A stretch of 64,000 nt of DNA from positions 669 through 64,668 of the forward strand of contig CAJWPJ010000002.1 of the NCBI GenBank assembly GCA_913045115.1, written 5' to 3'. Numbering within the stretch: position 1 is the stretch's first letter; each line of letters begins with the position of its first letter. Of this stretch, positions 45,714 through 59,843 are shown one piece after another. Source of the DNA: an uncultured Gammaproteobacteria bacterium (lineage in GTDB: Bacteria > Pseudomonadota > Gammaproteobacteria > GCA-002705445 > GCA-002716945). Below the pieces are notes generated by a model. That model saw only the letters and a program-made list of their open reading frames with translations, had not been told where the DNA came from and searched no databases. Made by a program: the position numbers and the translations under genes.

Positions 45714-47003
45714 TTATTTTCGAAGCTTAGCGGATTGAGAGTGAGCAGTTAGTCCCTCACAATCGGCTAAAAGTGAAGCTATTGTTGACAATTCCTTTGA
45801 GTGTGACTTTGATATTTTCATCAAACTTGTTCTTTTCAAAAAATCATACACACCTAGTGGTGAAGCATACTTTGCCGAACCACTTGTAGGTAAGACATGA
45901 TTAGGGCCAGCGCAATAATCTCCGAATACTTCAGGGCTGTTCTCCCCCATAAATATAGCACCTGCGTTATTGATATCTTTTTCTAATTTTAAATTCTCGT
46001 ATCCTAATATCTCTAGGTGTTCAGGAGCGATGTGATTAGCTATACTTACAATTTCTTTTTTATTCCCTACTTTTATAAATAAACCTCTTTGACTGAGAGA
46101 TTTTTTTATGATGTCTCTTCTTGATTGATTTTCAATTAAACTATTAATTTTACTAGTTACTGAATCAATAAGTTTATCGCTGGTAGTCATCAGGATAGCT
46201 TGCGCCAATTCGTCATGCTCAGCTTGAGCGAACATATCAGTTGCCACATACTCAGGATTTGCATTTTTATCCGCAATTATTAAAACTTCTGATGGGCCAG
46301 CAAAACTATCAATACCAACATTACCAAAAACTTTCTTCTTCGCGGTCGCAACAAATATATTTCCAGGTCCAACAATTTTATCAACAGATCTAACGGTCTC
46401 AGTTCCATAAGCAAGAGCGCCAACTGCATGAGCACCGCCAAACTTATATATTTCATCTACACCACATAAATCAGCAGCTATTAAGACTAATGGATTTAAA
46501 TTGCCATCAGTGGGAGGACACACCATAGTAATATGATCCACACCAGCAACTCTAGCTGGAATAGCATTCATAACTACAGTAGAGGGATAGCTCGCTTTGC
46601 CACCTGGAACATAGATACCAACTCGCTCAATGGGGGTTACTTTTTCACCTAGTCTCGAACCCTTAACATTTATAGACCAATTTCTTAGTTTTTGTTGCCT
46701 TGAAAATTTTTTAATATTTCCTATAGCCTTTTTGAGGCTCGATAATACCTTCTTTGAGACGTTAGTGTAAGCGAGACTGATTTCATCTGACGTTACAACA
46801 GAATCAGAAATTCTTTTATAAGACGTCATGTCATATTTTTTGATCAGTGATTTCAGACCTCTATCGCCATTTTTTTTTACGGTATTTAAAATAGTGTCTA
46901 CAGTTTTCTCGATTGTTTCTGAATTTTTTTGTTTGAGAGATAAGTGCTTATCAAGTTTATTTACGAAGTTAGTTTGACTAATATTCAGTTTTTTAATTTT
47001 CAT
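45714..47003 (-). CDS. hisD: Histidinol dehydrogenase
   Basis: 429 aa with the characteristic NAD/Zn-binding core (FAQAEHDE, GDYCAGPNHVLPT). The start overlaps the upstream DAHP synthase stop by 11 nt. Confidence 0.9.
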   Translation of the reverse strand: MKIKKLNISQTNFVNKLDKHLSLKQKNSETIEKTVDTILNTVKKNGDRGLKSLIKKYDMTSYKRISDSVVTSDEISLAYTNVSKKVLSSLKKAIGNIKKFSRQQKLRNWSINVKGSRLGEKVTPIERVGIYVPGGKASYPSTVVMNAIPARVAGVDHITMVCPPTDGNLNPLVLIAADLCGVDEIYKFGGAHAVGALAYGTETVRSVDKIVGPGNIFVATAKKKVFGNVGIDSFAGPSEVLIIADKNANPEYVATDMFAQAEHDELAQAILMTTSDKLIDSVTSKINSLIENQSRRDIIKKSLSQRGLFIKVGNKKEIVSIANHIAPEHLEILGYENLKLEKDINNAGAIFMGENSPEVFGDYCAGPNHVLPTSGSAKYASPLGVYDFLKRTSLMKISKSHSKELSTIASLLADCEGLTAHSQSAKLRK

Positions 47004-48051
47004 AAGCCTTTTTTAATGCATCATCTAAATCTAAGATTAATTGTTCCGTCTCATCCCAGCCAATGCACGAGTCAGTTATACTTTGACCATAAGTCAAGTT
47101 CTCTCTGCTATCAATTTTTTGGTTTCCTTCTACAAGGTTGCTCTCAAGCATAATCCCTATGATGTTTTTCTCTCCAGATATTAGTTGATTTTTAACATCG
47201 TCTACAACTCTAGATTGCATTTTAAAATCTTTATTACTATTAGCATGGCTTGCATCAATCATAATATTTGGTTTCATGTCATTATCCACTAGTATTTTTG
47301 CAGAATTTTTAACATCCTCAGACGCGTAGTTAGACTTGCCGTTACCGCCTCTATGGATTATATGACAATCATCATTACCCGCAGTATTAAAAATTGCAGA
47401 CTTGCCTTCTTTGGTTACTGATAAAAAACTATGTGAGTGTCTAGCTGCGTTCATTGCATCAATTGCTATTTGCAAACTACCATCCGTTCCATTTTTAAAA
47501 CCAACTGGACAAGAGAGTCCTGATGCAAGTTCCCTGTGACTTTGGCTTTCTGTTGTCCTAGCACCAATTGCTCCCCAACTAATAAGGTCAGAGATATATT
47601 GCGGACTTACCAAATCAAGAAATTCGTGTCCGCATGGTATTTCCATTTCAGCAAGGTCGATTAATAACTTTCTAGCTAATTTAATCCCCTTGTTAATTTT
47701 AAACGATCCATCTAGATCTGGATCATTTATTAGTCCTTTCCAACCAATTACTGTTCTTGGTTTTTCAAAGTATACTCTCATAATAATAAGACAGTTATCA
47801 GAAAGTATCGATGAAAGTTTTTTTAATCGAGTTGCATACTCTATTGCAGCATCCACATCATGAATAGAACATGGGCCAACCACAACCATGAATTTTTTTA
47901 GTGACTTATTGAGTATGTCCTTTATATGACCACGGGTATTTATAATAGTGCCTAAACCTTTCTCAGATGGTGAGATTGAATTAATAATTTCTTGAGGGCT
48001 TATAAGCTCTTGAGTATTTATGATTCGAAGATCGTCTGTTCTATTCTTCAT
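46993..48051 (-). CDS. aroG: 3-deoxy-7-phosphoheptulonate (DAHP) synthase, class I-alpha (AroG/F/H-like)
   Basis: 352 aa, collinear with E. coli AroG and highly similar to it (DDLRI...VVGPCSIHD...IMRVYFEKPRT.IGWKGLINDP...WGAIGARTTESQ.HRELASGLSCPVGFKNGTDG). Which aromatic amino acid feeds back is unknown. The ATG overlaps the hisG stop (ATGA). Confidence 0.9.
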   Translation of the reverse strand: MKNRTDDLRIINTQELISPQEIINSISPSEKGLGTIINTRGHIKDILNKSLKKFMVVVGPCSIHDVDAAIEYATRLKKLSSILSDNCLIIMRVYFEKPRTVIGWKGLINDPDLDGSFKINKGIKLARKLLIDLAEMEIPCGHEFLDLVSPQYISDLISWGAIGARTTESQSHRELASGLSCPVGFKNGTDGSLQIAIDAMNAARHSHSFLSVTKEGKSAIFNTAGNDDCHIIHRGGNGKSNYASEDVKNSAKILVDNDMKPNIMIDASHANSNKDFKMQSRVVDDVKNQLISGEKNIIGIMLESNLVEGNQKIDSRENLTYGQSITDSCIGWDETEQLILDLDDALKKAYEN

Positions 48052-48656
48052 TGGTTAACTTTGTCTAGGATTAAATCTATCTCTTTTCTTTTAATTTTAT
48101 ATGATACTTTATTTGCAATTAATAAAGAGGAAACATTTGAAATTATATCATGCTCCTTTAGGCCATTTTCTTTTAAAGTTTTTCCAGTTTCAACAATATC
48201 AACAATGAAATCAGATAAACCCATTACCGGAGCTAATTCAATGGAGCCATATAACTCTAGTATTGAACATTGAAAGCCAATATTCTCGAAATATTTTTTT
48301 GCAATTCTAGGATACTTTGTAGCAACTTTCATATTATTGAAGTATTTTTTCTTAGCTTTCCCAGCAACAACTAATTTACATTTTGATATGGTCATATCAT
48401 GCAGACGAAAATGATTATTTTTACCATCTTCCATCAAAGTGTCTAGACCTACAATACCAAGATCAATTGTTCCAGAATCAATATATACTGGTACGTCAGA
48501 AGCTTTGATAATGATAATCTCGAGGTTTTTTAGGTTTGTTGGGATAATCAATTTGCGAGTATTAAACGGGTTAACTTCACAAATAATATCTACTTTCTCT
48601 AGAGTATTTATTGCTTGTTCTAAAATTCTTCCTTTTGAAATAGCTAATCTAATCAT
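48048..48656 (-). CDS. hisG: ATP phosphoribosyltransferase, short form (HisZ-dependent type)
   Basis: 202 aa. Short-form HisG lacking the C-terminal regulatory domain, 11 nt downstream of murA as in Pseudomonas murA-hisG-hisD. Confidence 0.85.
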   Translation of the reverse strand: MIRLAISKGRILEQAINTLEKVDIICEVNPFNTRKLIIPTNLKNLEIIIIKASDVPVYIDSGTIDLGIVGLDTLMEDGKNNHFRLHDMTISKCKLVVAGKAKKKYFNNMKVATKYPRIAKKYFENIGFQCSILELYGSIELAPVMGLSDFIVDIVETGKTLKENGLKEHDIISNVSSLLIANKVSYKIKRKEIDLILDKVNQ

Positions 48657-48667
48657 GGATATGCATT

Positions 48668-49927
48668 TTACATAGGTTTTCTTGAAATCCTAGCACCAAT
48701 TAACTGAAGTTTTTCCTCAATACAATCATACCCCCTATCTATGTGGTAGACTCTCCCGATTTCGGTCACACCTTTCGCTGCCAAGCCTGCTAAGATAAGA
48801 CTGGCAGATGCTCTTAAGTCTGTTGCCATCACAGGTGCCCCCAACAGTTCCGTAATGCCTGAAATTTCTGCGATGTTATCATGAACTCTAATTTTAGCGC
48901 CCATTCGAATTAGCTCTTGCGCATGCATAAATCTATTTTCAAAGATATTCTCTTTAACATTACTTTCTCCATAAGCAATACAATTTAATGCCGTCATTTG
49001 AGCTTGCATGTCAGTCGGGAAAAGGGGGTAAGCATTAGTCTCAATATCTATCGCCTTCGGCCTTTTGGTCATTTTAACTCTAACAGAGTCTTTTAAGATT
49101 TTTATATCTGCACCTGTCTGAATAAGCTTATCAATTACTGCTCGAGTATGCTCGGGCACTATATTACATATTTCAATATCTCCTCTCGTTATTGCAGCCG
49201 CAACCATAAAAGTTCCTGCTTCTATCCTATCAGGCAATGGCTTATGTCTGGTTCCTTTGAGTGTATTCACACCTTCAATAGTAACTTTGCTAGAGCCATA
49301 CCCAGTAATTTTTGCGCCCATTTTAATGAGGAATTCACATAAATCTGAAATTTCAGGCTCACTCGCCGCGTTTTCAATAATTGTCTTTCCTTTTGCTAAT
49401 GTCGCAGCCATGATTATATTTTCAGTCCCCGTAACAGATTTTCTCGGGAAGGAAATCTTTGTACCATTTAATCTTTTTGCTTTTGCAGAAATATATCCAT
49501 TCTCGACAGATATGCTTGCTCCCATTTTTTCCAACGCATCTAGGTGCATATCCACTGGTCTCATCCCGATAGCACAACCACCTGGTAAAGATACTTTTGC
49601 TTCACCATACTTCGCCAAGAGCGGACCTAGAACTAGTATTGATGATCGCATTGTTTTAACCAATTCATACGGCGCATATAAGTTATGAATTGTAGATGGA
49701 TCAAGACTTATGTCCATAAATTCATCCATAGTTACACTAATCCCCATCTGAGTTAATAATCTAGTTGTGGTAGTCACATCCTGTAGATGAGGGACATTCT
49801 CTAGCTCTACTTCACCTTGAGAAACCATAACCGAAGCGCACAACATCGGTAGAACAGAATTCTTTGCTCCCGATATCCTCACTGTGCCAGATAACTGTTG
49901 TTGCCCGTCTATAAGTAGCTTATCCAT
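48668..49927 (-). CDS. murA: UDP-N-acetylglucosamine 1-carboxyvinyltransferase
   Basis: 419 aa with the active-site Cys loop VSLPGGCAIGMRPVDMH. Confidence 0.95.
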   Translation of the reverse strand: MDKLLIDGQQQLSGTVRISGAKNSVLPMLCASVMVSQGEVELENVPHLQDVTTTTRLLTQMGISVTMDEFMDISLDPSTIHNLYAPYELVKTMRSSILVLGPLLAKYGEAKVSLPGGCAIGMRPVDMHLDALEKMGASISVENGYISAKAKRLNGTKISFPRKSVTGTENIIMAATLAKGKTIIENAASEPEISDLCEFLIKMGAKITGYGSSKVTIEGVNTLKGTRHKPLPDRIEAGTFMVAAAITRGDIEICNIVPEHTRAVIDKLIQTGADIKILKDSVRVKMTKRPKAIDIETNAYPLFPTDMQAQMTALNCIAYGESNVKENIFENRFMHAQELIRMGAKIRVHDNIAEISGITELLGAPVMATDLRASASLILAGLAAKGVTEIGRVYHIDRGYDCIEEKLQLIGARISRKPM

Positions 49928-49980
49928 AGATATTTTTTAAGTTTGTTTCGGTATTCTAAAAGTTTATACTCAATAAAGCT

Positions 49981-52437
49981 ATGATTAAAAAGTTATCAAC
50001 CCTTTATAAAGAGTATATATTGAGCCTACCCATCTATGTGCTGTTCTTTCTGGCAATGGTACTAATGGCGTCTGCATCTAATATGAAGCATTTTACATTA
50101 GATGCATCAGCTGACACCCTGATTCTAGAGGATGATCAAGATTTAAAAATATTTCGTGAAACTAACGCAAAATACAAGTCATCTGATTTTATGATTTTGA
50201 CTCTGACAGATAATCAAAGAGATGTTTTCTCAACCGATACGCTTGACCTAGTTGAGATGTTATCCAGAAAAATAGAAAAAATAAAAAATATTAAATCCGT
50301 AAACTCAATAACAAATATTCCGCTTGTGACAAGTTCAAAAAAACCACTCACTGAATTGATCAATAACATACCAAATATTCTAAGCGCAGATGTTGATCGC
50401 AATCTAGCTAAAAAAGAGATTCTATCAAGCCCGATATATAAAGATCTGATTATAAGCTCTGATGCAAAAACTACTGCAATGCAAATTGTTATTAAAGAAG
50501 ATGAATCACTATCTAGTGCACTTAAAGAAAAAAATGTTTTGTATGAGGAGTATAAAAAAAATGATAGCTTTAAAGATCAATATTTGGCATCAAAGTTAAA
50601 ATATCAAGAATTAGCAAAAAATAATAAAAAGGAAATCAATCTCCTCATAAAAGAGTTAAGAAAAGTTCAAGATTCATATTCAAACGAAAGGTATGAAATT
50701 CGATTAGGAGGGATACCAATGATAACGGATGATATGGTTACCTTTATAAAAAACGATCTTATCAATTTTGGTTTTGGAGTCCTGATCTTTATTTTATTAA
50801 CTTTGATTATAATTTTCAGAAAATTAATTTGGGTTGTAGCTCCTATAATTAACTGCCTATATGCAGTTTTATTTATGGTTGGACTTTTGGGGTATCTTGA
50901 CTGGAAAGTCACAGTTATATCATCTAATTTTATTTCATTAATGCTGATTCTTACATTGTCAATGAACATCCATATTATAGTTAGATATAGACAAATTTTC
51001 TCAAATTCCAACGGCAATAAATTTCAATCAATGTTTGAAACTACAAAAAAAATGATATGGCCATGCTTATATACAGCATTAACAACTATTGTAGCCTTCG
51101 CATCCCTTATTTTCAGTGACATCAAACCTGTTATAGACTTCGGCTTTATGATGGTAATAGGTTTGACGGCATTATTTTTAACATCTTTTACACTACTTCC
51201 ATGTTTCATTTTGATTTTCTCAAATGAAGACAATTCTCATATAAATCAACATCAGAGAAAAAGCTTGGTTATCGATTCATTATCAAAAATAGCTCAGAAG
51301 TCCGGCAATTATGTGTATGCTCTTACTCTTTTGTTAACTATAGTGACTGTTTATGGTCTTACCCAGCTCAAAGTTGAGAATAGTTTTATCAATTACTTCA
51401 GGGCTGATACTGAAATCCACAAAGGTATGAAGTTGATTGACAGTCAGCTAGGCGGGACAACCCCGATGGATATTGTCATAAAGTTCAATGATGATAACAA
51501 TAATGAGGAAAGTGATGAGGAATTTGATGAATTATTAGGAGCTGATGAGACGTCTGACGAGTCTAATTGGTTCACTACCGAAAGAATTAATAAAATTAAA
51601 TATATCCATGACTATTTGGATAACAATAAATATATAGGCAAGGTATTATCACTTGCATCATCCATTCGTGTTGCAGAAAAAGTAAATAATGATAAAGAGC
51701 TAAATAGTCTAGAAATGTCGCTTCTCTACAAGCAGCTGCCAAATGAAGTTAAAGATATCGCTGTGAACCCTTACTTATCAATAAAAGATAACGAGGCAAG
51801 AATAAACATAAGGGTATTAGATTCAGATAAAGATCTTCGTCGAGCAGCTTTGATTGAGTCTATAAGAACAGATCTAAATAATGATAAGTACTTGGAAGCA
51901 GAAGATATTACGATTACTGGAATACTCCTTTTGTATAATAATATGCTCCAGAGCCTATTCGATTCGCAAATTAAATCGCTTGGGTTTGTTATGCTGATTA
52001 TCGCACTTATGTTTTTAGTTTTATTCAGATCTTTAAAGCTAATGATAATAGGTATAGTTCCTAATCTTTTGTCTGCACTTCTTGTTTTAGGTATCATGGG
52101 TATAATCAACCTGCCACTGGATATGATGACTATTACAATCGCTGCAATAACAGTAGGTATTGCTGTCGATAACAGCATTCACTATATATATCGTTTTAAA
52201 GAAGAATTTACTACATACAAAAATTATGAAGAGACAATAATCGCCTGCCATTCCAGCATTGGAAGAGCTATATTTTTTACTGGTATTACAGTGATATTCG
52301 GTTTTTCTATTCTTGTTCTCTCTAATTTCATACCTACAATTATTTTTGGAACATTGACTGGGTTTGCAATGCTTGTAGCGCTCGTATTAGTTCTGACTTT
52401 ATTACCTAGATTATTAATATCTATGAAGCCACTCTGA
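49981..52437 (+). CDS. RND-superfamily exporter, HpnN/MMPL-like (COG1033 type, 2x6 transmembrane helices with two periplasmic loops)
   Basis: 818 aa. It has two repeats of a 6-transmembrane-helix bundle, each followed by a large soluble loop, and the RND signature GIAVDNSIHYIYRF. An acidic low-complexity insert (NDDNNNEESDEEFDELLGADETSDESNW) sits in the second loop. Confidence 0.8.
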   Translation: MIKKLSTLYKEYILSLPIYVLFFLAMVLMASASNMKHFTLDASADTLILEDDQDLKIFRETNAKYKSSDFMILTLTDNQRDVFSTDTLDLVEMLSRKIEKIKNIKSVNSITNIPLVTSSKKPLTELINNIPNILSADVDRNLAKKEILSSPIYKDLIISSDAKTTAMQIVIKEDESLSSALKEKNVLYEEYKKNDSFKDQYLASKLKYQELAKNNKKEINLLIKELRKVQDSYSNERYEIRLGGIPMITDDMVTFIKNDLINFGFGVLIFILLTLIIIFRKLIWVVAPIINCLYAVLFMVGLLGYLDWKVTVISSNFISLMLILTLSMNIHIIVRYRQIFSNSNGNKFQSMFETTKKMIWPCLYTALTTIVAFASLIFSDIKPVIDFGFMMVIGLTALFLTSFTLLPCFILIFSNEDNSHINQHQRKSLVIDSLSKIAQKSGNYVYALTLLLTIVTVYGLTQLKVENSFINYFRADTEIHKGMKLIDSQLGGTTPMDIVIKFNDDNNNEESDEEFDELLGADETSDESNWFTTERINKIKYIHDYLDNNKYIGKVLSLASSIRVAEKVNNDKELNSLEMSLLYKQLPNEVKDIAVNPYLSIKDNEARINIRVLDSDKDLRRAALIESIRTDLNNDKYLEAEDITITGILLLYNNMLQSLFDSQIKSLGFVMLIIALMFLVLFRSLKLMIIGIVPNLLSALLVLGIMGIINLPLDMMTITIAAITVGIAVDNSIHYIYRFKEEFTTYKNYEETIIACHSSIGRAIFFTGITVIFGFSILVLSNFIPTIIFGTLTGFAMLVALVLVLTLLPRLLISMKPL

Positions 52438-52448
52438 GTGGTAGTTTA

Positions 52449-53030
52449 TTATTCTTTGAGAGATGAAATAAGTGAGTCAATCCCATTTTGAGATACATGT
52501 TCTCTGAAATCTGCTCTATAGTTTTTCATCAAACTTATGCCATCAAAAATAATATCATAAACTTTCCAAGTGTTAGATTTTTTTATTAACCTATAATCAA
52601 CAGCAATATCACCCCCAGGTATTAAGTATTTCGATTTCACATAAGCTATGTTATTTCTTTTGCCTGGTTCATAAGGCAGAAAAATCACTTTTTCTCCATC
52701 AAACGCTGTAATAGATTTCATATATGTACTGGTCATCCTATATTTAAAAGCCTCTACAAAGTTGCCTTTTTGATTCTCTGACAAGTTTGTCCATATTTTC
52801 TTACCCAGTATAATTTTTGACATAAGTTTAATATCAAGCTTTGGCATTACTGTGGAGTTCATTTTACTTCTGAGAAATTCCTCATCAGATTCAAACCTGT
52901 CCTTATATTTGGTGACTAATTGTGAAATCTCCTCAACTGATTCTTTCAAGAAGACATCAGGCCCAGTGCTTGAATAAACTACATCTGATAGCAAAAAAAA
53001 GGCTAACAAGAATGATATTTTTTTAATCAT
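52449..53030 (-). CDS. mlaC: MlaC/Ttg2D-family periplasmic lipid-binding protein (HpnM-like)
   Basis: 193 aa with a signal peptide and the family motif WKVYDIIFDGISLMKNYRADF. Confidence 0.75.
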   Translation of the reverse strand: MIKKISFLLAFFLLSDVVYSSTGPDVFLKESVEEISQLVTKYKDRFESDEEFLRSKMNSTVMPKLDIKLMSKIILGKKIWTNLSENQKGNFVEAFKYRMTSTYMKSITAFDGEKVIFLPYEPGKRNNIAYVKSKYLIPGGDIAVDYRLIKKSNTWKVYDIIFDGISLMKNYRADFREHVSQNGIDSLISSLKE

Positions 53031-53060
53031 GGCTCTTATTTTAGTATATAATTTGTAATT

Positions 53061-53819
53061 ATGTTACAGGGTATGCATAAATTTTCTTTATTCAATCTTT
53101 TTCTCTCAGCTTTAGCATTTATAGTGTTATTGTCAATTAATACATCTACCTCATATGCATCTGATGATGATCCTTTAGAACCAATGAACAGAGTAATCTT
53201 TGGTTTCAATGAGATAGTAGATGATAATATCTTAGAGCCTGTCGCTGAGGGATACAGATATATCACACCTGATCCTGTGGAGGACAGCATAAGTAATTTT
53301 TTTAATAATTTAGGGGAAATAAATACAATAGTTAATAGTGCATTGCAGATGAAACTAGATAAAACTATGACTTCCTCAAGTAGACTGATCATAAATTCAA
53401 CAGTTGGAATTTTCGGCCTATTTGATGTCGCATCCACCTTGGGCATACAAAGGCATAGAGAAGACTTTGGTCAAACACTCGGACACTACGGTATCTCGCC
53501 CGGCCCATATCTTGTCTTGCCATTTTTTGGGCCAAGTTCATTTAGAGATGCTCCTGGTTTCTATGTAGATGTCATGATCGAAAAAGATATTTCGCCAATA
53601 CATACAGAACTACATCACGAGGAGAGGCAGGTAATCCAGGCAACTAATGTAATTGATACAAGAGCTAATCTTCTCAAAGCTACTAAAATTATAGATACAG
53701 CTGCAAAAGATAAATATATTTTTCTTAGAGAATCATATCTTCAGAGAAGGGCAAAAATGGTTACAGATGGTAAGGACGTGCAAGACTTTGAAATTGACGT
53801 GCTTGAAATCAATTATTAA
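53061..53819 (+). CDS. mlaA: MlaA/VacJ outer-membrane lipoprotein
   Basis: 252 aa with a signal peptide and conserved DPLEPMNRVIFGFN and PYLVLPFFGPSSFRD motifs. TATAAT lies 8 nt upstream of the ATG. Confidence 0.8.
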   Translation: MLQGMHKFSLFNLFLSALAFIVLLSINTSTSYASDDDPLEPMNRVIFGFNEIVDDNILEPVAEGYRYITPDPVEDSISNFFNNLGEINTIVNSALQMKLDKTMTSSSRLIINSTVGIFGLFDVASTLGIQRHREDFGQTLGHYGISPGPYLVLPFFGPSSFRDAPGFYVDVMIEKDISPIHTELHHEERQVIQATNVIDTRANLLKATKIIDTAAKDKYIFLRESYLQRRAKMVTDGKDVQDFEIDVLEINY

Positions 53820-53852: not shown

Positions 53853-54788
53853 ATGACAGAAGCTATACTATTCTCACTAGCAGGGTTAATATTATTGCTA
53901 TTGGGTTCAAATTTTCTAGTAAGCTCTACTGAGCGATTCTCAAACACGTATAGAATTTCTGGATTCATAGCAAGTTTTTTTATAATTGGAATTGCTACTT
54001 CAGCTCCTGAAATTTTCATATCTATCGAATCTGCGCTCTTAGATCAAACTATACTTGCGATAGGTAATGCTATTGGTTCGAATTTATCTAATATTGCTCT
54101 AGTATTTGCTATATCAATATTTTTCATACCAAAAGAGAGCAACTCATCGGCTCTACCACGTAATGCATACATGGGTATGATTATTCTGACTCTAAGTATG
54201 TTCTTGCTTATTCGCTTTGACAGTTTATTTAGTATTGTTGATGCTTTGATCTTACTCGTTTTATTTTTAGGCATCTTATTCGTATTAGACAAGCATAATA
54301 ATGCCAAGGACTATCAGGCTATAAAATATGACATGAGATTTAATCTATTAAAAATTATATTTCTAGTACTGAGTGGAATAATTCTTCTTGTTTATGGGTC
54401 TGGTTATTTTATTTATGGCGCGACTCAAATTGCCCTCTTCTATGGCATAAGCAGCTATGTAATTGGTTTAACTCTCACAGCTTTAGGAACGAGCCTACCT
54501 GAACTTACTGTCAGTATACAGTCTGCAAGAAAAGGAAAGGTCGATTTTGTCATAGGCAATATTATTGGTTCTAATATTTTTAATATAGCAATCGCAATGA
54601 GCATTGCTGGATTAATAAGCTCTTCAATGGTTACAGTGGCAGATTTTACAAGGGACATTATGTTTTTATTAATAGCCTCAAGTGTTTTTTATTTAATCAT
54701 TAAATCAGATAAAATTTTCATAAAAACTGTATACTCTAGTCTATTAGTAATAACATATCTTGTATATGTATCATTCATACTTGGATAA
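53853..54788 (+). CDS. yrbG: Ca2+/cation antiporter (CaCA) family inner-membrane protein YrbG
   Basis: 311 aa with duplicated alpha-repeat motifs (GNAIGSNLSNIALV / GNIIGSNIFNIAIA), immediately upstream of kdsD as in E. coli. Confidence 0.8.
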   Translation: MTEAILFSLAGLILLLLGSNFLVSSTERFSNTYRISGFIASFFIIGIATSAPEIFISIESALLDQTILAIGNAIGSNLSNIALVFAISIFFIPKESNSSALPRNAYMGMIILTLSMFLLIRFDSLFSIVDALILLVLFLGILFVLDKHNNAKDYQAIKYDMRFNLLKIIFLVLSGIILLVYGSGYFIYGATQIALFYGISSYVIGLTLTALGTSLPELTVSIQSARKGKVDFVIGNIIGSNIFNIAIAMSIAGLISSSMVTVADFTRDIMFLLIASSVFYLIIKSDKIFIKTVYSSLLVITYLVYVSFILG

Positions 54789-54790
54789 AT

Positions 54791-55753
54791 ATGAAAAAAA
54801 AGTCTAACAAACAGCTTGCTAAAGAAATCATCAATAGGGAGATAGCTGCTCTCAAAAGAATGGTGAAGCTTTTAGATAATAATTTTGATAAAGCATGTGA
54901 TGCTATTTCATTAAATAAGGGTAAAATAATTACACTTGGTTTGGGAAAATCAAGTTTTATTGCCAAAAAAATGGCAGCAACACTATGTAGCACTGGATCT
55001 GCGGCATTATTCCTTCATCCAGTTGAAGCTATGCACGGTGATGTCGGGGTGATATCAAAAAATGATGTTGCTATTGTATATTCAAACTCTGGTGAGACGG
55101 AGGAGATAATAAAATTATTGCCTATTTTGAAATTACTAAAGTGTGACATAATATCTATTACAGGTAACACTTCATCATCCCTTGCTAAGTACTCAAAAAT
55201 TTCTCTAGATGCATCAGTGCTTCGAGAAGCATGTCCTAACAACTTGGCACCGACATCAAGCATAGTATGTGCCTTGGCGCTCTCAGATGCTCTTGCTATG
55301 GCGATTTCATATCAGAATAGTTTTACTATTAAAGATTTTGCTAAAACGCACCCCGAGGGTGAATTGGGAAGGAGACTATTAATTACTGTCTCAGACATCA
55401 TGATAAGCAAAAAATTACCATTCATACATTGCGATGATAATTTTCCTAACCTCCTAAATAAAACTACTAAATATAATTTGGGTTTAGTAATGATAATAGA
55501 TAATGAAAAAAAATTAATCGGTGTGATTACTGATGGAGATATTAAGAGAATAATAAAAAAATATAAAAATTTTGAATCAATCAAAATTAAAAATGTAATG
55601 ACGAAAAAACCTTTTACAGTAGACTCAGAAATGTTGGCTGCAGAAGCGCTTACTATTCTTGAAGAGAACAACATAAGTACACTACCAGTAATAGATCAGG
55701 GTAAAATAGTAGGAATACTCAAGTTCGAAAATATAATTAAATCGATTAAATAA
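54791..55753 (+). CDS. kdsD: Arabinose-5-phosphate isomerase (SIS + tandem CBS)
   Basis: 320 aa with a SIS domain (GLGKSSFIAKKMAATL) plus two CBS domains. Confidence 0.9.
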   Translation: MKKKSNKQLAKEIINREIAALKRMVKLLDNNFDKACDAISLNKGKIITLGLGKSSFIAKKMAATLCSTGSAALFLHPVEAMHGDVGVISKNDVAIVYSNSGETEEIIKLLPILKLLKCDIISITGNTSSSLAKYSKISLDASVLREACPNNLAPTSSIVCALALSDALAMAISYQNSFTIKDFAKTHPEGELGRRLLITVSDIMISKKLPFIHCDDNFPNLLNKTTKYNLGLVMIIDNEKKLIGVITDGDIKRIIKKYKNFESIKIKNVMTKKPFTVDSEMLAAEALTILEENNISTLPVIDQGKIVGILKFENIIKSIK

Positions 55754-55754
55754 T

Positions 55755-56294
55755 TTGACTATGGATCTAGAACTTATAAAAAACATTTACTCAAACGAAC
55801 TAATCAAAAAAGCAAAAAACATTGAATTGTTAGCATTCGATGTTGATGGTGTTCTCACGGATGGTGGCCTTTACTATGATCACAAAGGAAATGAACTAAA
55901 GAAATTTCACGCTCAAGATGGTCATGGTATAAAGATAATGCAATCTATTGGAGTAAAGACAATGATTATTTCAGGAAGACAATCAGATTCCGTTGAGCAT
56001 CGTGCAAGAGAATTAGGAATTGATTACGTCATACAGGGAAGTAGAAATAAACTTAAATCATTTTATGATTGCGAACTAAGTACATCGATGAAACATGTAT
56101 GCTTCGTTGGGGATGATACTGTTGATGTCGAACTTTTGGAAACTGTTGGGATGTCAATAGTAGTGCCAAATACTAATCCGTTAATAGACAAAGAGAGTTT
56201 TGATTGGGTAACAAAAAGAAATGGCGGTAATGGAGCAATAAGGGATGTTTGTGACCTTATCTATTTTTCAAAGATACTTGATGATAAATTTTAA
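55755..56294 (+). CDS. kdsC: 3-deoxy-D-manno-octulosonate 8-phosphate phosphatase
   Basis: 179 aa HAD-superfamily protein with a TTG start and motifs FDVDGVLTDG, GDDTVD. Confidence 0.9.
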   Translation: MTMDLELIKNIYSNELIKKAKNIELLAFDVDGVLTDGGLYYDHKGNELKKFHAQDGHGIKIMQSIGVKTMIISGRQSDSVEHRARELGIDYVIQGSRNKLKSFYDCELSTSMKHVCFVGDDTVDVELLETVGMSIVVPNTNPLIDKESFDWVTKRNGGNGAIRDVCDLIYFSKILDDKF

Positions 56295-56946
56295 TTTATT
56301 TATTATTTTTTTTTCCTTCCTATTATCATGTCACTCATCACTCGCAGATGATACAACTAATCAAAGAGAATTAAAAAATAAAGTATATAATTTTTCATCG
56401 AAGAATATTGATGCTGATATGTCTACTAAATGGAGGTTAACAGGATTATATTTGGAAAAGTACAAAGATAATTACACATTGATAAAGAATCCTAAACTCA
56501 AATTATTTAATTCTAATCTTATTACTAATATAAGCTCTGAAACAGCAATCGATCCTACAGGAAATATGGATGAAATTTATCTAAAAAGTAATGTGTTTGT
56601 AAATAGAGATAATCCTTCAACTGGGGATAATGTGAAACTATACACATCATACGCCATATTTTATTTACCAAAAAATCTAATTGAAACTGATCAAGATGTT
56701 ACAATAATCACCTCTGATTCAACAACGACCGGGAATGGATTGTCTGCTAACCTTGAGTCTGGGCTAATAACCATTCTTAGTAATGTCGAGAGAATTGTTA
56801 GCAATGGTGACCAATTACAGACAATAAAAGGTAATCAAATGATATATAATACTAAAACTGGTAAGTGGCTTGTAAAAAATAAGCCTGCGAGTGAATTAAA
56901 AAGAAGTATTGAGAATAAGGTAACAACTACATTCAACTTAAATTAA
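56281..56946 (+). CDS. lptC: LPS export protein LptC
   Basis: About 221 aa from an internal ATG (MINFNLFIIFFSFLLS transmembrane anchor); the ORF track begins at 56245, overlapping kdsC by 50 nt. The C-terminal TTTGNGLSANLESGLITILSNVERIV parallels E. coli LptC GTTFNSSGLKMRGNLRSKNAELIEKV. No second OstA-family gene (lptA) follows. Confidence 0.7.
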   Translation: MINFNLFIIFFSFLLSCHSSLADDTTNQRELKNKVYNFSSKNIDADMSTKWRLTGLYLEKYKDNYTLIKNPKLKLFNSNLITNISSETAIDPTGNMDEIYLKSNVFVNRDNPSTGDNVKLYTSYAIFYLPKNLIETDQDVTIITSDSTTTGNGLSANLESGLITILSNVERIVSNGDQLQTIKGNQMIYNTKTGKWLVKNKPASELKRSIENKVTTTFNLN

Positions 56947-56947
56947 T

Positions 56948-57673
56948 ATGTCAACTCTAGCGTCAATAGGTCTCAAAAAATCCTTTGATAATAAAACAGT
57001 AATTCATGATGTCTCCCTGGAGGTCAAATCTGGAGAGATAGTGGGCTTATTGGGGCCAAATGGTGCTGGGAAAACAACTACTTTTTATATGATAGTTGGC
57101 TTGATTAAATCAGATCAGGGAAGTATTCATATAAATGAGGAGAATATTACACTTGATCCAATTCATCGAAGGTTTGAACATGGCATAAGCTACCTCCCTC
57201 AAGAACCATCTATATTCAGAGATATGACCGCAAGGGATAATATTAACGCTATTCTAGAGATTGGTAAAACTTTGAATTCAAATGAGCGAGCAAAAATCTT
57301 AGAAGGTCTGATAGAAAAATTTGATTTACATAAATTTATTGATACAAAAGGTATCCAACTTTCAGGCGGGGAGAGAAGAAGGGTGGAAATTGCTAGGGCG
57401 CTTGCACTTAAACCTAAATTTCTTTTATTGGATGAGCCGTTTGCTGGTATTGATCCGATATCCGTAATTGACATACAAAAAATTATCAAAGTGCTGGCAA
57501 AAGAGGATATAGGAATATTAATCACAGATCATAATGTTAGAGAAACTTTAAAGATATGTCATAAATCATATGTAATTAACTCTGGAAAAGTTCTAGCATC
57601 AGGAAAACCTAAGGATCTAGTCAAGGATGAGGTTGTTAAGAAAGTCTACCTGGGTGAATCATTTAAATTGTGA
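56948..57673 (+). CDS. lptB: LPS export ABC transporter ATP-binding protein LptB
   Basis: 241 aa ABC ATPase with Walker A GPNGAGKTT, signature LSGGERRRV and Walker B LLLDEPFAGID. Confidence 0.95.
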   Translation: MSTLASIGLKKSFDNKTVIHDVSLEVKSGEIVGLLGPNGAGKTTTFYMIVGLIKSDQGSIHINEENITLDPIHRRFEHGISYLPQEPSIFRDMTARDNINAILEIGKTLNSNERAKILEGLIEKFDLHKFIDTKGIQLSGGERRRVEIARALALKPKFLLLDEPFAGIDPISVIDIQKIIKVLAKEDIGILITDHNVRETLKICHKSYVINSGKVLASGKPKDLVKDEVVKKVYLGESFKL

Positions 57674-59001
57674 ATAAATTAAAACAAACAACTTCGCTTT
57701 CTCAAAGAAAGGTTTTATCTCAACAAACAAGACAGGCAATAAGGCTACTACAGTTAAATACGTTTGATTTAGAGAAAGAGATAGATAACTTGATTTTAGA
57801 AAATCCACTTCTAGAAAAAAATGAAGAAATAGAATCAAATTATGATGTAGTCTCAAATGTCAGTGCATTAAATTCTGATCCAGATGATATCCTAAAGTAC
57901 CACAAAAAAAATGAAACACTTCAAGAATCGTTAATAAGACAATCAGAAATGGTATCATTTTCTGAAGATGAAAAAATAATATCTAGGATTATCATTGATT
58001 GTGTAAACGATAACGGCTACCTAACCGAAGACTTGAACAATATATTTTTACAAGCAAATAGGAGCATAGAAGTGTCATTCCAAGACATATTTTATGTTTT
58101 GCATACACTTCAGAGGTTTGAGCCTGTTGGAACATGTGCAATCGACTTGTGCGATACCTTATCTATACAGTTAGACAATTCTTATAGAGATTCTCCACTG
58201 TACGAAAGTGCAGTTGATATTATTCAATATGTAAAAAAAATAGATATTACAAATAATCCTGGATTTGATAGAATTATAGCTGGCCTAGACAAAATTACAC
58301 GTTTTGATGAGAAAGCCCTAGAATTAGTAAGAAAGCTTAATCCAAAGCCCGGCCTTGAAGTCTGTAAAAAATTAGATTCATATCAAATTACACCTGAGGT
58401 GATCATTTTCAAAAGAGATGGCAGATGGATTACCGAGTTAACCAAAAGCCAGCCTTTAGTTAAGTTGAATGCAGATTATGTTTCATTAATGAATGAGAGT
58501 AAGATAAAAACTGATTTAGATTACCTTCGCAAAAACTATAATGAAGCTAAATTTATTATCAAATCAATTAAGAACAGGAGCTTAACGATTCTAAATGTGT
58601 GCAAGGAGATTTTCATAAGACAGGCAGAATTTCTCAGAAGTGGTGATATTGGTATGAAACCAATGACTCTTAAAGATATTGCTGAGTCACTTGGTATTCA
58701 TGAGTCGACAGTCTCCAGGGCGACCAGCAACAAGTATGTGCAAACGCCAAGGGGTGTTTACGAGCTTAAATATTTTTTCACCTCAGAGCTTAATACTGAT
58801 ACCGGAAAGATGATCTCATCAAAAGTAATTATGAAAATGATCCAGGAGTGTGTTAAGACTGAGAGAGCTAATAAGCCTATGAGTGATAATGAAATATCTA
58901 AATACTTTACAACTTTGGGAGTATCTGTCGCAAGACGGACGATAACAAAGTATCGAGAGAAGTTAGATATCCCAAGTTCAACTAAGAGAAAAAGAGATTA
59001 A
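57670..59001 (+). CDS. rpoN: RNA polymerase sigma-54 factor
   Basis: 443 aa with a GTG start overlapping the lptB stop. Gln/Leu-rich region I, the RpoN box ARRTITKYRE near the C-terminus, and a short region II. Confidence 0.95.
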   Translation: MNKLKQTTSLSQRKVLSQQTRQAIRLLQLNTFDLEKEIDNLILENPLLEKNEEIESNYDVVSNVSALNSDPDDILKYHKKNETLQESLIRQSEMVSFSEDEKIISRIIIDCVNDNGYLTEDLNNIFLQANRSIEVSFQDIFYVLHTLQRFEPVGTCAIDLCDTLSIQLDNSYRDSPLYESAVDIIQYVKKIDITNNPGFDRIIAGLDKITRFDEKALELVRKLNPKPGLEVCKKLDSYQITPEVIIFKRDGRWITELTKSQPLVKLNADYVSLMNESKIKTDLDYLRKNYNEAKFIIKSIKNRSLTILNVCKEIFIRQAEFLRSGDIGMKPMTLKDIAESLGIHESTVSRATSNKYVQTPRGVYELKYFFTSELNTDTGKMISSKVIMKMIQECVKTERANKPMSDNEISKYFTTLGVSVARRTITKYREKLDIPSSTKRKRD

Positions 59002-59002
59002 C

Positions 59003-59461
59003 ATGATTAAGATCAAGTTAGAGGATTCTCAAGTTTCTGTCAGTGAAAATTGCAAAACTAAGAAAAGTATTTTAGAAAAAATATCTGAGCTTCTAAGTAA
59101 GCCATCGGGTATAAATAGAAATGATATTTTCGCTAAACTGTATGAACGAGAGAAGCTTGGTTCGACATCTATAGGTAAAGGTGTCGCAATACCACATGCA
59201 AGAATCCATAACATAGAGTATCCATTCTTATCAATTATGATACTGGATGAGCCTGTAGATTTTGATAATATTGACAGTCTAGATGTAGATATAATTGCGT
59301 CGCTGATTGTTCCAGAAGAAAATTTTAGTAATCACCTTGAATTGTTGGCATATCTGAGTAACAAACTTGATGACCCATTTATTAGAAAAGAATTAAGACA
59401 AGCAAGAAATAGTAGTCAAATTATTAAAAATTTACGTTCCGATGATCTGGAGTTCATTTAA
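59003..59461 (+). CDS. ptsN: Nitrogen-regulatory PTS IIA protein (EIIA-Ntr)
   Basis: 152 aa EIIA(Fru/Ntr) fold with the phospho-His context GKGVAIPHAR. It directly follows rpoN; no hpf lies between them. Confidence 0.85.
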   Translation: MIKIKLEDSQVSVSENCKTKKSILEKISELLSKPSGINRNDIFAKLYEREKLGSTSIGKGVAIPHARIHNIEYPFLSIMILDEPVDFDNIDSLDVDIIASLIVPEENFSNHLELLAYLSNKLDDPFIRKELRQARNSSQIIKNLRSDDLEFI

Positions 59462-59843
59462 TTTGAAAGTTGGTATATTAATAATAACTCATAGTGATAT
59501 TGGCAAGCAGTTACTTCTGACTGCAACTTCGGTGTTCGGAAAAAATCCATTTCAAGTTGAGTTACTCTCTGTAGATAATTATGATCAGCCTAGTGATGTA
59601 AGAGAGCTGGCAGAAAAATACGTCAATTTTCTTGATAATGGATCAGGTGTTTTAGTTATGACGGACATAATTGGAACAACACCCTCCAACATTGCATCCT
59701 CTATTAATTACAAGAATATTAGAGTTGTAGCAGGGTTAAATCTATCAATGTTATTGAATGTTTTCAATTATCCAGAAGATTCCCTAGATACATTAACAGA
59801 TAAAGCCGTTAAAGGCGGTATTGAGGGAGTTTCAAGGGTATAG
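59442..59843 (+). CDS. PTS EIIA mannose/fructose-family (EIIA-Man-like) stand-alone protein
   Basis: 133 aa. VGILIITHSDIGKQLL matches the EIIA-Man active-site His region (ManX IAIVIGTHGW). The real start may be the TTG at about 59463, just after the ptsN stop. Confidence 0.7.
   Translation: MIWSSFNLKVGILIITHSDIGKQLLLTATSVFGKNPFQVELLSVDNYDQPSDVRELAEKYVNFLDNGSGVLVMTDIIGTTPSNIASSINYKNIRVVAGLNLSMLLNVFNYPEDSLDTLTDKAVKGGIEGVSRV

What the first reader, a model, noticed from the sequence alone, without database searches (positions are those of the whole stretch)
49981..53819. HpnN-like RND exporter, MlaC and MlaA cluster occupies the syntenic slot of the mlaFEDCB ABC transporter
In E. coli and Pseudomonas the mlaFEDCB operon sits between murA and (yrbG-)kdsD-kdsC-lptC-lptA-lptB-rpoN. 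Here that slot, between murA and yrbG-kdsD, holds three separately transcribed genes. The first is an 818-aa RND-superfamily exporter of the COG1033 class (HpnN/MMPL-like). The second is a convergent periplasmic MlaC/Ttg2D-family lipid carrier. The third is the outer-membrane lipoprotein MlaA. No MlaD (MCE), MlaE permease, MlaF ATPase or MlaB is present in the window. An RND plus Ttg2D pair is known from hopanoid clusters (HpnN/HpnM). Finding it fused to MlaA next to the LPS-export locus suggests a proton-motive-force-driven inner-membrane partner for the MlaC-MlaA phospholipid shuttle. This would be an MCE/ABC-independent lipid-trafficking route. The acidic low-complexity insert in the second periplasmic loop of the exporter (about 51481-51570) is an additional oddity.
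Basis: partly seen in the sequence, partly recalled or inferred. Interest (0 to 1): 0.6.

Follow-up and report, generated by a model that had tools for sequence, protein, structure and literature searches.

The report
RND pump in the MlaFEDB slot
In an uncultured low-GC marine gammaproteobacterium, the chromosomal place normally held by the ATP-driven phospholipid transporter MlaFEDB holds a proton-driven RND-type lipid transporter next to the lipid carrier MlaC and the outer-membrane protein MlaA; this pairing recurs in several phyla and has so far only been hypothesised in two recent preprints.

Summary
Window 49981-53819 encodes an 818-aa MMPL/HAE3-type RND protein (+), a 193-aa MlaC (-) and a 252-aa MlaA (+). 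They lie between murA and yrbG-kdsD-kdsC-lptC-lptB-rpoN, where E. coli has ibaG-mlaBCDEF. No MlaD, MlaE, MlaF or MlaB is encoded in the window or within 10 kb of either end.

The RND is not HpnN: it scores 121 bits against a cut-off of 752. It belongs to a large family of about 820-aa proteins with no curated model. In 22 of 35 non-SAR11 genome loci this RND lies next to MlaC, and in nine of those MlaA is adjacent too. These loci come from gammaproteobacteria, Desulfobacterota, Nitrospirota and Planctomycetota. In eight gammaproteobacterial lineages, including SUP05 and Acidiferrobacteraceae, the order is RND-mlaC-ibaG-murA. There the RND takes exactly the place of mlaFED, and mlaB is gone.

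The best reading is a proton-motive-force-driven inner-membrane station for the MlaC-MlaA shuttle. Transport direction and substrate are unresolved. Whether MlaFEDB is absent from the whole genome could not be tested.

The "odd" acidic insert is a disordered loop found in every family member. Related ideas already exist as hypotheses (HpnN/HpnM/HpnS, 2025; C. jejuni Cj1371-1373, 2026), so this is a new variant of a known kind.

The parts
48668..49927 (-). murA, left border of the conserved slot
   Evidence: NCBIfam TIGR01072 murA, 563.7 bits. Same relative position as in E. coli.
49928..49980 (.). 53-bp divergent spacer between murA and the RND gene. It must hold the RND promoter.
   Evidence: Sequence read. 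No functional evidence.
49981..52437 (+). 818-aa RND-superfamily lipid transporter of an uncurated MMPL/HAE3-like family with 12 predicted TM helices and two periplasmic domains
   Evidence: Pfam MMPL E=2.8e-35. HAE3 177.7 bits (<351.9) and HpnN 121 bits (<751.85). AF2 pLDDT 84.9, pTM 0.80. Foldseek top hits are MmpL4/5, MmpL3, HpnN and NPC1, TM 0.65-0.72. 3374 representative homologues at E<=1e-30.
50503..50679 (+). Predicted helical hairpin (aa 175-233) projecting from periplasmic domain 1
   Evidence: AF2 secondary structure H175-193 and H195-233, block pLDDT 86-92. Any role in docking is inference only.
50920..50973 (+). TM4 polar motif: S314, S315, N316 and H331, invariant in the family
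   Evidence: Conservation in 45 de-replicated family members. The residues lie in predicted helix 314-342.
51496..51561 (+). Disordered acidic D/E-rich loop (aa 506-527) in periplasmic domain 2; a family hallmark
   Evidence: pLDDT <50 for residues 506-527. A homologous D/E-rich loop is present in every aligned homologue; the aligned region spans 57-96 residues.
52120..52185 (+). TM10 motif with invariant D714, D730, H734 and Y735; candidate proton-relay residues
   Evidence: 45/45 conservation. The residues lie in predicted helix 715-746. This is an analogy to the Asp/Tyr relay of MmpL3 (established knowledge) and was not tested.
52428..52442 (.). Small hairpin at the 11-bp convergent junction of the RND gene and mlaC
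   Evidence: Terminator-like site with 6 pairs; the count does not exceed that of shuffled sequence. Weak evidence.
52449..53030 (-). 193-aa periplasmic MlaC/Ttg2D-family lipid carrier with a Sec signal peptide, in the same orientation relative to murA as E. coli mlaC
   Evidence: Pfam MlaC E=6.8e-41. HpnM TIGR03481 76 bits (<160) and MlaC PRK15117 52.8 bits (<195). 19% identity to E. coli MlaC, E=4.7e-15.
53061..53819 (+). 252-aa MlaA-family outer-membrane protein without a lipobox cysteine; probably the first gene of the yrbG-kdsD-kdsC-lptC-lptB-rpoN unit
   Evidence: Pfam MlaA E=3.2e-74. The N-terminus reads ...VLLSINTSTSYASDDDP, whereas relatives L008 and L011 have an SSC lipobox. 33-bp gap to yrbG.
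53853..59001 (+). Right border of the slot: yrbG-like antiporter, kdsD, kdsC, lptC, lptB and rpoN (no lptA)
   Evidence: Pfam and NCBIfam. tblastn with E. coli LptA gave no hit.

Best explanation
The 818-aa protein is a proton-motive-force-driven RND lipid transporter of the MmpL/HpnN/NPC1 structural type. It most likely serves as the inner-membrane station of a periplasmic lipid shuttle made of MlaC (soluble carrier) and MlaA (outer-membrane station). In this lineage, and in several other gammaproteobacterial lineages, its gene has taken over the chromosomal place of the ABC/MCE complex genes mlaFED and mlaB beside mlaC.

Shown: the gene identities, the slot homology, the conserved RND-MlaC(-MlaA) neighbourhood across phyla, the lipid-RND fold, and the invariant polar residues in TM4 and TM10.

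Inferred: physical hand-over of lipid between the periplasmic domains of the RND and MlaC, coupling to the proton gradient, and glycerophospholipid (or lyso-phospholipid) as cargo.

Direction is open. Displacement of MlaFEDB in situ argues for an equivalent, retrograde housekeeping role, comparable to NPC2 handing lipid to NPC1. The behaviour of MmpL3 and HpnN argues for export from the inner membrane to MlaC and on to MlaA.
For: (1) Slot. E. coli has murA-ibaG-mlaBCDEF | yrbG-kdsD.... The window has murA | RND | mlaC | mlaA-yrbG-kdsD....
(2) In eight independent genome loci (L010, L014 Acidiferrobacteraceae, L015, L020, L021 Thiotrichaceae, L025, L048 Ca. Thioglobus/SUP05, L050) the order is (kdsD...) | RND-mlaC-ibaG-murA on one strand (no ibaG-like hit in L050). 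The RND therefore replaces mlaF-E-D, and no mlaB lies between mlaC and ibaG or murA in L048, L050 and L021.
(3) Co-directional MlaA-MlaC-RND or MlaC-RND-MlaA clusters, with gaps of roughly 30-300 bp, occur in Nitrospirota, Desulfobacterales and Planctomycetota. Overall, MlaC is adjacent in 22 of 80 loci. That is 22 of 35 once the roughly 45 near-identical SAR11 contexts are set aside. MlaA is adjacent in 9.
(4) The linked RNDs are spread over the whole family tree and are not one clade.
(5) Reverse test. Starting from MlaC-profile hits, 3 of the 3 contigs that have downstream DNA carry an 839-854-aa MMPL/RND gene right after mlaC, and one also carries mlaA.
(6) The arrangement is conserved in relatives at 57-94% identity, on contigs up to 1.04 Mb.
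(7) Fold and motifs. AF2 pTM is 0.80. The best structural matches are all lipid-moving RNDs. D730, H734, Y735 and H331 are invariant in membrane helices.
(8) Independent published hypotheses describe the same wiring in other organisms (PMC12324291; 10.64898/2026.08.28.747810).
Against: There is no experimental datum for any member of this RND family. In about 45 SAR11 loci, and in Marinobacter, Kangiella, Pseudoteredinibacter and others, the RND has no MlaC or MlaA within 10 kb. The family therefore either does not strictly need an adjacent MlaC or works with one encoded in trans. No RND-MlaC fusion proteins were found among ten unusually long homologues. No consistent charge complementarity exists between the acidic loop and the MlaC partners. 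Whether mlaFEDB persists elsewhere in this genome is unknown. C. jejuni keeps both systems, so 'replacement' may really be 'relocation or loss of the neighbour'. In the window itself the three genes lie on alternating strands and are not an operon.
Confidence: 0.65

Rival explanations
1. Complement, not replacement. A complete MlaFED(B) complex is still encoded elsewhere in the genome. MlaC then serves two inner-membrane machines: the RND loads it (anterograde, PMF-driven) and the ABC complex unloads it (retrograde). This is what has been proposed for C. jejuni.
For: C. jejuni has the mlaA-mlaC-RND operon plus a separate mlaFED operon. The RND family also occurs, without adjacent mlaC, in genera such as Marinobacter that by general knowledge carry a canonical mla operon; this was not verified here. 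Known MmpL and HpnN relatives are exporters (and established knowledge).
Against: In eight gammaproteobacterial lineages the RND sits exactly where mlaFED were, and mlaB is gone too. This looks like displacement rather than addition. These are small, streamlined genomes, in which redundancy is unusual. No Mla ABC part was found in about 84 kb around the cluster.
Confidence: 0.35
2. An ordinary hopanoid export triad (HpnN-HpnM-HpnS) in a hopanoid producer that happens to sit next to the LPS genes.
For: HpnN is the closest solved structure by sequence profile (6wu0, E=3e-24). All RND-linked MlaC proteins score somewhat higher on the HpnM model than on the enterobacterial MlaC model. An HpnN/HpnM/HpnS module has been described. 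Desulfobacterota, Planctomycetota and nitrite oxidisers, which carry similar clusters, include hopanoid producers.
Against: The RND scores 121 and 86 bits against HpnN cut-offs of 752 and 1100. Ten other family members score 93-127 bits. HpnM scores are also all below its cut-off of 160. No shc or hpn gene lies in the window or in 10 kb on either side. The family is a conserved-context core gene in SAR11. A similar operon exists in Campylobacterota, which lack SHC.
Confidence: 0.05
3. Coincidental neighbours. The RND exports something unrelated (solvent, drug, siderophore or another lipid) and only happens to lie beside mlaC and mlaA in a compact genome.
For: In the window the three genes are on alternating strands. 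SAR11 and several cultured gammaproteobacteria have the RND without Mla neighbours.
Against: Adjacency recurs in 22 of 35 non-SAR11 loci from at least four phyla, in three different gene orders, mostly co-directional and tightly spaced. It is recovered again when starting from MlaC. MlaC genes are present at roughly one or two copies per genome, so chance adjacency is negligible.
Confidence: 0.08

Closest known systems
C. jejuni Cj1371 (MlaA)-Cj1372 (MlaC)-Cj1373 (RND) operon (bioRxiv 10.64898/2026.08.28.747810, Aug 2026)
   Same: The same three protein classes are encoded together. The authors propose a lipid/H+ RND antiporter that loads MlaC for delivery to MlaA. The gene order MlaA-MlaC-RND matches the Nitrospirota loci L035 and L055 found here.
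   Different: C. jejuni keeps mlaFED in a second operon. Only MlaC has been characterised, and the RND link is a hypothesis. Whether Cj1373 belongs to the same RND family as the window protein could not be tested because no sequence was available to the tools. The in-slot displacement of mlaFED(B) and the marine distribution are not described in the passages of that preprint that were read.
HpnN-HpnM-HpnS hopanoid module (Burkholderia and others; PMC12324291, 2025; HpnN structures 5KHN, 5KHS, 6WU0)
   Same: An HAE3-type RND is paired with an MlaC-family periplasmic protein and an MlaA-family outer-membrane protein. HpnN is the closest solved structure by sequence profile and a clear structural match.
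   Different: The window RND and its whole family fall far below the HpnN model thresholds. There is no hopanoid gene context here. The cluster sits in the murA/kdsD slot instead of next to shc.
MlaFEDB-MlaC-MlaA (E. coli maintenance of lipid asymmetry)
   Same: The same MlaC and MlaA families and the same chromosomal neighbourhood (murA, ibaG, yrbG, kdsD, lpt, rpoN).
   Different: The inner-membrane ABC/MCE complex (MlaF, MlaE, MlaD, MlaB) is not encoded in the slot and an RND is there instead. The energy source would be PMF, not ATP. MlaC is only 19% identical to E. coli MlaC. MlaA lacks the lipoprotein cysteine.
Mycobacterial MmpL3/MmpL4/MmpL5 lipid and siderophore exporters
   Same: These are the best Foldseek matches (TM about 0.67-0.70). 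They are PMF-driven and hand cargo to periplasmic partners.
   Different: Only 12-14% identity. Different periplasmic inserts: here a helical hairpin in PD1 and an acidic loop in PD2. Different partner proteins.
Eukaryotic NPC1-NPC2 (and NCR1, Patched)
   Same: An RND-fold membrane protein works with a small soluble lipid carrier, and the structures match (TM 0.70-0.72). This shows that an RND can receive lipid from a carrier, which is the retrograde logic.
   Different: Sterol cargo, eukaryotic lysosome, and no homology between NPC2 and MlaC.

Membership tests
RND superfamily, MMPL-type (Pfam PF03176) | Match to the MMPL model above the gathering score, in both halves | tested here: met
   122.3 bits against a cut-off of 20.5, two stretches.
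RND superfamily, MMPL-type (Pfam PF03176) | 12-TM, two-periplasmic-domain architecture with the fold of lipid RNDs | tested here: met
   AF2 pTM 0.80. Foldseek matches to MmpL3/4/5, HpnN and NPC1 at TM 0.65-0.72, E down to 3e-25.
RND superfamily, MMPL-type (Pfam PF03176) | Conserved membrane-embedded titratable residues for proton coupling | tested here: inconclusive
   D714, D730, H734, Y735 and H331 are invariant in 45/45 sequences and lie in predicted TM helices. Their function was not tested.
HAE3 family (TIGR00921) | Score at or above the curated cut-off | tested here: not met
   177.7 bits against 351.9. It is the best-scoring curated model but below threshold. Ten relatives score 135-186 bits.
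HpnN hopanoid transporter (TIGR03480 / NF052374) | Score at or above the curated cut-off | tested here: not met
   121 bits against 751.85, and 85.8 bits against 1100. Relatives score 93-127 bits.
HpnN hopanoid transporter (TIGR03480 / NF052374) | Genomic association with shc/hpn genes in a hopanoid producer | tested here: not met
   None in the 64-kb window or in 10 kb beyond each end. The rest of the genome was not testable.
MlaC / Ttg2D (Pfam PF05494) | Match above the gathering score, plus a signal peptide | tested here: met
   140.3 bits against 26, covering the full model 2-166. N-terminal hydrophobic signal sequence.
MlaC equivalog (NF011697) and HpnM (TIGR03481) | Score at or above the curated cut-off | tested here: not met
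   52.8 bits against 195, and 76.1 bits against 160.1. It is therefore neither an enterobacterial-type MlaC nor an HpnM by curated thresholds.
MlaA (Pfam PF04333) | Match above the gathering score | tested here: met
   249.2 bits against 25.
MlaA (Pfam PF04333) | Lipoprotein: lipobox with Cys | tested here: not met
   There is no Cys in the N-terminal 40 residues, and a likely signal-peptidase-I site SYA|SDDD. Relatives L008 and L011 have an SSC lipobox.
Canonical Mla pathway (MlaFEDB-MlaC-MlaA) | MlaD (MCE), MlaE, MlaF and MlaB encoded in the genome | not testable with these tools
   Absent from the slot, the window and the flanks, about 84 kb in total.
RND-MlaC-MlaA shuttle (hypothesised kind: Cj1371-73, HpnN/M/S) | Conserved co-localisation of the three gene classes | tested here: met
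   22/80 loci have MlaC, 9 also have MlaA, across four phyla. Reverse look-ups gave 3/3.
RND-MlaC-MlaA shuttle (hypothesised kind: Cj1371-73, HpnN/M/S) | Physical and functional interaction of the RND with MlaC | not testable with these tools
   The structure tool predicts single chains only, and no experiments exist.

The most novel reading that the evidence does not exclude
In this abundant marine lineage, and in SUP05, Acidiferrobacteraceae, Thiotrichaceae and similar lineages, MlaFEDB has been lost altogether. A proton-driven RND would then be the only inner-membrane station of the Mla shuttle. That would be a naturally occurring Mla pathway independent of ABC and MCE proteins, whose energetics and direction could be compared head-to-head with the canonical system.
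Probability: 0.4. Interest if true: 0.75.

Novelty: new variant of a known kind. Interest (0 to 1): 0.6.

Why it matters
How phospholipids travel between the two membranes of Gram-negative bacteria, and in which direction Mla works, is a long-running question. A natural swap of the ATP-driven MlaFEDB complex for a proton-driven RND at the same locus, with MlaC and MlaA kept, gives a comparative handle. It predicts that MlaC can dock to two unrelated inner-membrane machines. It also defines a large, unannotated RND family (3374 representative homologues at E<=1e-30) as a candidate envelope-lipid transporter. That family is present in some of the most abundant ocean bacteria, namely SAR11, SUP05 and a probably SAR86-like lineage. 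It lends comparative support to the hypothesis recently raised for C. jejuni, provided Cj1373 belongs to this family, which was not tested. Practically, it would improve genome annotation, where these genes are now labelled 'MMPL family transporter' or 'predicted RND superfamily exporter'.

Tried and rejected
1. Whole-genome presence or absence of mlaFEDB and shc could not be determined. Word-indexed protein searches would return only enterobacterial MlaE. Look-ups extend only 10 kb. The SAR86 isolate paper and its ten text supplements contain no Mla terms or KOs. Literature searches for Mla in SAR11, SAR86 or SUP05 found nothing.
2. RND-MlaC fusion proteins as a Rosetta-stone link: ten unusually long homologues carry only RND-type domains. 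The extra length coincides with alignment breaks at the variable acidic loop.
3. Electrostatic docking of the acidic loop onto a basic MlaC: the pI of mature RND-linked MlaCs ranges from 4.6 to 9.9 with no trend. Rejected.
4. The acidic insert as a lineage-specific oddity: rejected, because it is found throughout the family.
5. Annotated homologues on plasmids: one weak, unannotated hit only.
6. Organism identity: cluster names gave no taxon, and the window has no rRNA. The 33% GC and the contigs of 1 Mb or more fit SAR86/Magnimaribacterales, but this remains unverified.
7. Same-family membership of Cj1373: no sequence was obtainable.
8. Promoter and terminator scans of the cluster are uninformative in this AT-rich DNA: 44 promoter-like sites against 32 +/- 6 in shuffles.
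9. Overlapping start and stop codons of mlaC and the RND in L042 and L048 are artefacts of longest-ORF calling and are not claimed.

Full report
**What is there.**
- Window 49981-52437 (+) encodes an 818-aa protein. It matches Pfam MMPL (E=2.8e-35). Among curated NCBIfam models it matches HAE3 TIGR00921 best, at 177.7 bits against a cut-off of 351.9. The hopanoid transporter models reach only 121 bits (cut-off 751.85) and 85.8 bits (cut-off 1100).
- Window 52449-53030 (-) encodes a 193-aa protein with a signal peptide and a full-length MlaC domain (E=6.8e-41).
- Window 53061-53819 (+) encodes a 252-aa MlaA-family protein (E=3.2e-74).
- To the left lies murA on the minus strand. To the right lie yrbG-like, kdsD, kdsC, lptC, lptB and rpoN on the plus strand.
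- I read the E. coli K-12 reference region, which is murA-ibaG-mlaB-mlaC-mlaD-mlaE-mlaF | yrbG-kdsD-kdsC-lptC-lptA-lptB-rpoN. The slot homology is therefore correct, and mlaC even keeps its ancestral orientation relative to murA.
- tblastn with E. coli MlaB, MlaD and MlaE finds nothing in the window, and MlaF hits only lptB.
- Pfam annotation of every other sizeable ORF, and of 10 kb beyond each window end, shows only housekeeping genes: guaAB, nusA-infB, nuo, carAB, petABC, his, pts, lptFG and a porin.

**Source.** Identical proteins occur on marine metagenome contigs, from Tara Oceans and other surveys, of up to 316 kb. GC content is 32-38%, about 34% on average, and intergenic spacers are tiny. 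A relative at 71% identity keeps the same gene order on a 1.04-Mb contig. This fits SAR86/Magnimaribacterales, which have 31-40% GC and 1.05-1.66-Mb genomes (PMC11582366). I could not verify the taxon.

**The RND family.** An exhaustive profile-free search gave 3374 representative homologues at E<=1e-30. Full-length proteins of about 820 aa extend down to about 30% identity.
- Ten members from Nitrospirota, Desulfobacterales, Planctomycetota, SUP05, Acidiferrobacteraceae, SAR11, Marinobacter and Nitrospina all behave like the window protein. They score 135-186 bits on HAE3 and 93-127 bits on HpnN, always far below the cut-offs. This is a distinct family with no curated model.
- A family profile finds HpnN as the nearest solved structure, but only at E=3e-24.
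- The AlphaFold2 model is confident (pLDDT 84.9, pTM 0.80) and shows 12 TM helices and two periplasmic domains.
- Foldseek returns only lipid-moving RNDs: MmpL4/5, MmpL3, HpnN, NPC1/NCR1, NPC1L1 and Patched. TM-scores are 0.65-0.72 at 12-14% identity.
- S314, S315, N316 and H331 (TM4) and D714, D730, H734 and Y735 (TM10) are invariant in 45 de-replicated members. This is compatible with a proton relay like that of MmpL3, but it is an inference.

**The acidic insert.** It corresponds to the only disordered part of the model, residues 506-527. In an alignment of 81 family members, every sequence has a D/E-rich loop of variable length between the conserved LGGTTPLDI and YWFT motifs, often with DEF repeats. 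The window's copy is among the shortest. It is a hallmark of the family, not a peculiarity of this gene. Its function is unknown.

**Comparative genomics: the key evidence.** A scan of one genome per GTDB species with a family alignment returned 80 loci. tblastn and iterated HMM searches of their ORFs show four situations.
- Group A: two uncultured gammaproteobacteria (57% identity) have the window's layout.
- Group B: eight loci from Ca. Thioglobus/SUP05, Acidiferrobacteraceae, Thiotrichaceae and unclassified gammaproteobacteria or Pseudomonadota. They have RND-mlaC-ibaG-murA on one strand, and in the four loci whose fetched upstream flank shows them (L014, L020, L048, L050) kdsD, followed in three of them by lptA-lptB-rpoN, on the other (L050 lacks an ibaG-like hit). 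Compared with E. coli mlaF-E-D-C-B-ibaG-murA, the RND stands exactly where mlaFED stood. No mlaB lies between mlaC and ibaG or murA in L048, L050 and L021.
- Group C: Nitrospirota, Desulfobacterales and Planctomycetota carry tight co-directional MlaA-MlaC-RND or MlaC-RND-MlaA clusters.
- Group D: about 45 SAR11 loci have the RND in a fixed housekeeping context, rpsF-rpsR-rplI-dnaB-RND-cvpA-purF. Marinobacter, Kangiella, Pseudoteredinibacter and others also have it without Mla neighbours.

Overall, MlaC is adjacent in 22 of 80 loci, or 22 of 35 once SAR11 is set aside. MlaA is also adjacent in nine. On a neighbour-joining tree the linked RNDs are scattered through the family. The link is therefore either ancestral or arose repeatedly.

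As a reverse test, I searched with a profile of the RND-linked MlaCs and looked up four hits. The three with downstream DNA all have an 839-854-aa RND immediately after mlaC, and one also has mlaA. Chance cannot explain this.

**Interpretation.** The best-supported explanation is that this RND is the inner-membrane partner of the MlaC-MlaA shuttle, powered by the proton gradient. In some gammaproteobacterial lineages its gene displaced mlaFED and mlaB at the ancestral locus. The physical hand-over, the cargo and the direction are all inferred.

Two considerations pull in opposite directions on transport direction:
- In-situ displacement suggests functional equivalence with MlaFEDB, which most work places in retrograde transport. 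NPC2 handing lipid to NPC1 shows that an RND can accept lipid from a soluble carrier.
- MmpL3 and HpnN are exporters, and the C. jejuni authors propose anterograde transport.

I could not test whether mlaFEDB survives elsewhere in this genome. C. jejuni keeps both systems. The RND family also occurs in genera that, by general knowledge, have canonical mla operons. A dual-machine model therefore remains a serious rival.

**Relation to what is known.** Two preprints already propose this wiring.
- PMC12324291 (2025) names MlaA-like HpnS and MlaC-like HpnM as partners of HpnN in hopanoid producers.
- bioRxiv 10.64898/2026.08.28.747810 (2026) notes the C. jejuni mlaA-mlaC-RND operon and hypothesises PMF-driven lipid loading of MlaC.

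Neither, in the passages I read, describes the replacement of mlaFED(B) in the murA-kdsD slot, the distinct non-HpnN family, or its spread through marine bacterioplankton, although I did not read the C. jejuni preprint's supplementary figure on its operon and RND. Searches of the held literature found no such description.

The hopanoid explanation is unlikely here:
- The HpnN and HpnM thresholds are not met.
- There is no shc or hpn context.
- SAR11 carries the gene as a core gene.
- Campylobacterota lack SHC.

I therefore rate the finding as a new variant of a known, still hypothetical, kind.

**Things that led nowhere** (details are in the tried-and-rejected field):
- fusion proteins
- charge complementarity of MlaC with the acidic loop
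- plasmid homologues
- promoter scans
- taxon names
- SAR86 supplements

**Verdict.** Interest is 0.6. If whole-genome searches show that MlaE and MlaD are truly absent, the case becomes considerably more interesting.

Noticed in passing
window 56245-57673: There is no lptA between lptC and lptB. E. coli LptA gives no tblastn hit anywhere in the window, and the closest relative L008 also lacks it at this position. The group-B loci whose flank reaches the lpt genes (L014, L048, L050) keep lptA there. LptC is long (221-233 aa, depending on the start codon) and overlaps kdsC by 50 nt.
   Followed up: partly
window 53061-53180: MlaA has no lipobox cysteine (…VLLSINTSTSYASDDDP…). The 55-61%-identical homologues in L008 and L011 have an SSC lipobox at the aligned position. 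The protein is therefore probably a signal-peptidase-I-processed, non-lipidated MlaA. The same sequence is seen on 33 contigs, so it is not a sequencing error.
   Followed up: partly
window 57670-61828: The rpoN neighbourhood is compacted: rpoN, ptsN, an EIIA-Man-type protein, an NPr/HPr homologue and an Enzyme I homologue (PEP-utilising family, probably PtsP) follow one another directly. The hpf and rapZ genes found in E. coli between rpoN and npr are absent (no tblastn hits).
   Followed up: partly
L022-L086 (about 45 Pelagibacteraceae loci), e.g. L068 9998-12382: The same RND family (46-49% identity) is a conserved-context gene in SAR11: rpsF-rpsR-rplI-dnaB-RND-cvpA-purF, with no MlaC or MlaA within 10 kb. 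On a neighbour-joining tree the window clade is sister to the SAR11 clade. This could reflect horizontal transfer or AT-rich compositional attraction.
   Followed up: partly
L096 8754-9848 (about 0.1-1.2 kb beyond the right end of the window): A 364-aa Porin_4-family general porin gene lies just past the window end. It is a candidate outer-membrane partner for MlaA, by analogy with OmpC/OmpF-MlaA.
   Followed up: no
window 45714-48656: A 352-aa DAHP-synthase-I-family gene (AroG-like in length) is wedged between hisG and hisD, with overlapping or abutting coding ends.
   Followed up: no
window 31074-31775: A 233-aa ORF between folP and ftsH has no Pfam match at E<=1e-5. It is conserved as a called gene on related contigs (L089 8513-9214).
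   Followed up: no
window 50503-50679 (RND aa 175-233): The AF2 model shows a confident helical hairpin of about 58 residues inserted in periplasmic domain 1. It is reminiscent of, but differently placed from, the coiled-coil of MmpL4/5.
   Followed up: no
L014 9181-9906 and L048 9186-9842: In two group-B loci a 218-241-aa protein with a GTYGW…W…FYDP motif sits between kdsD and the RND gene. It resembles a DUF72-type protein from memory only and was not scanned against any family library.
   Followed up: no
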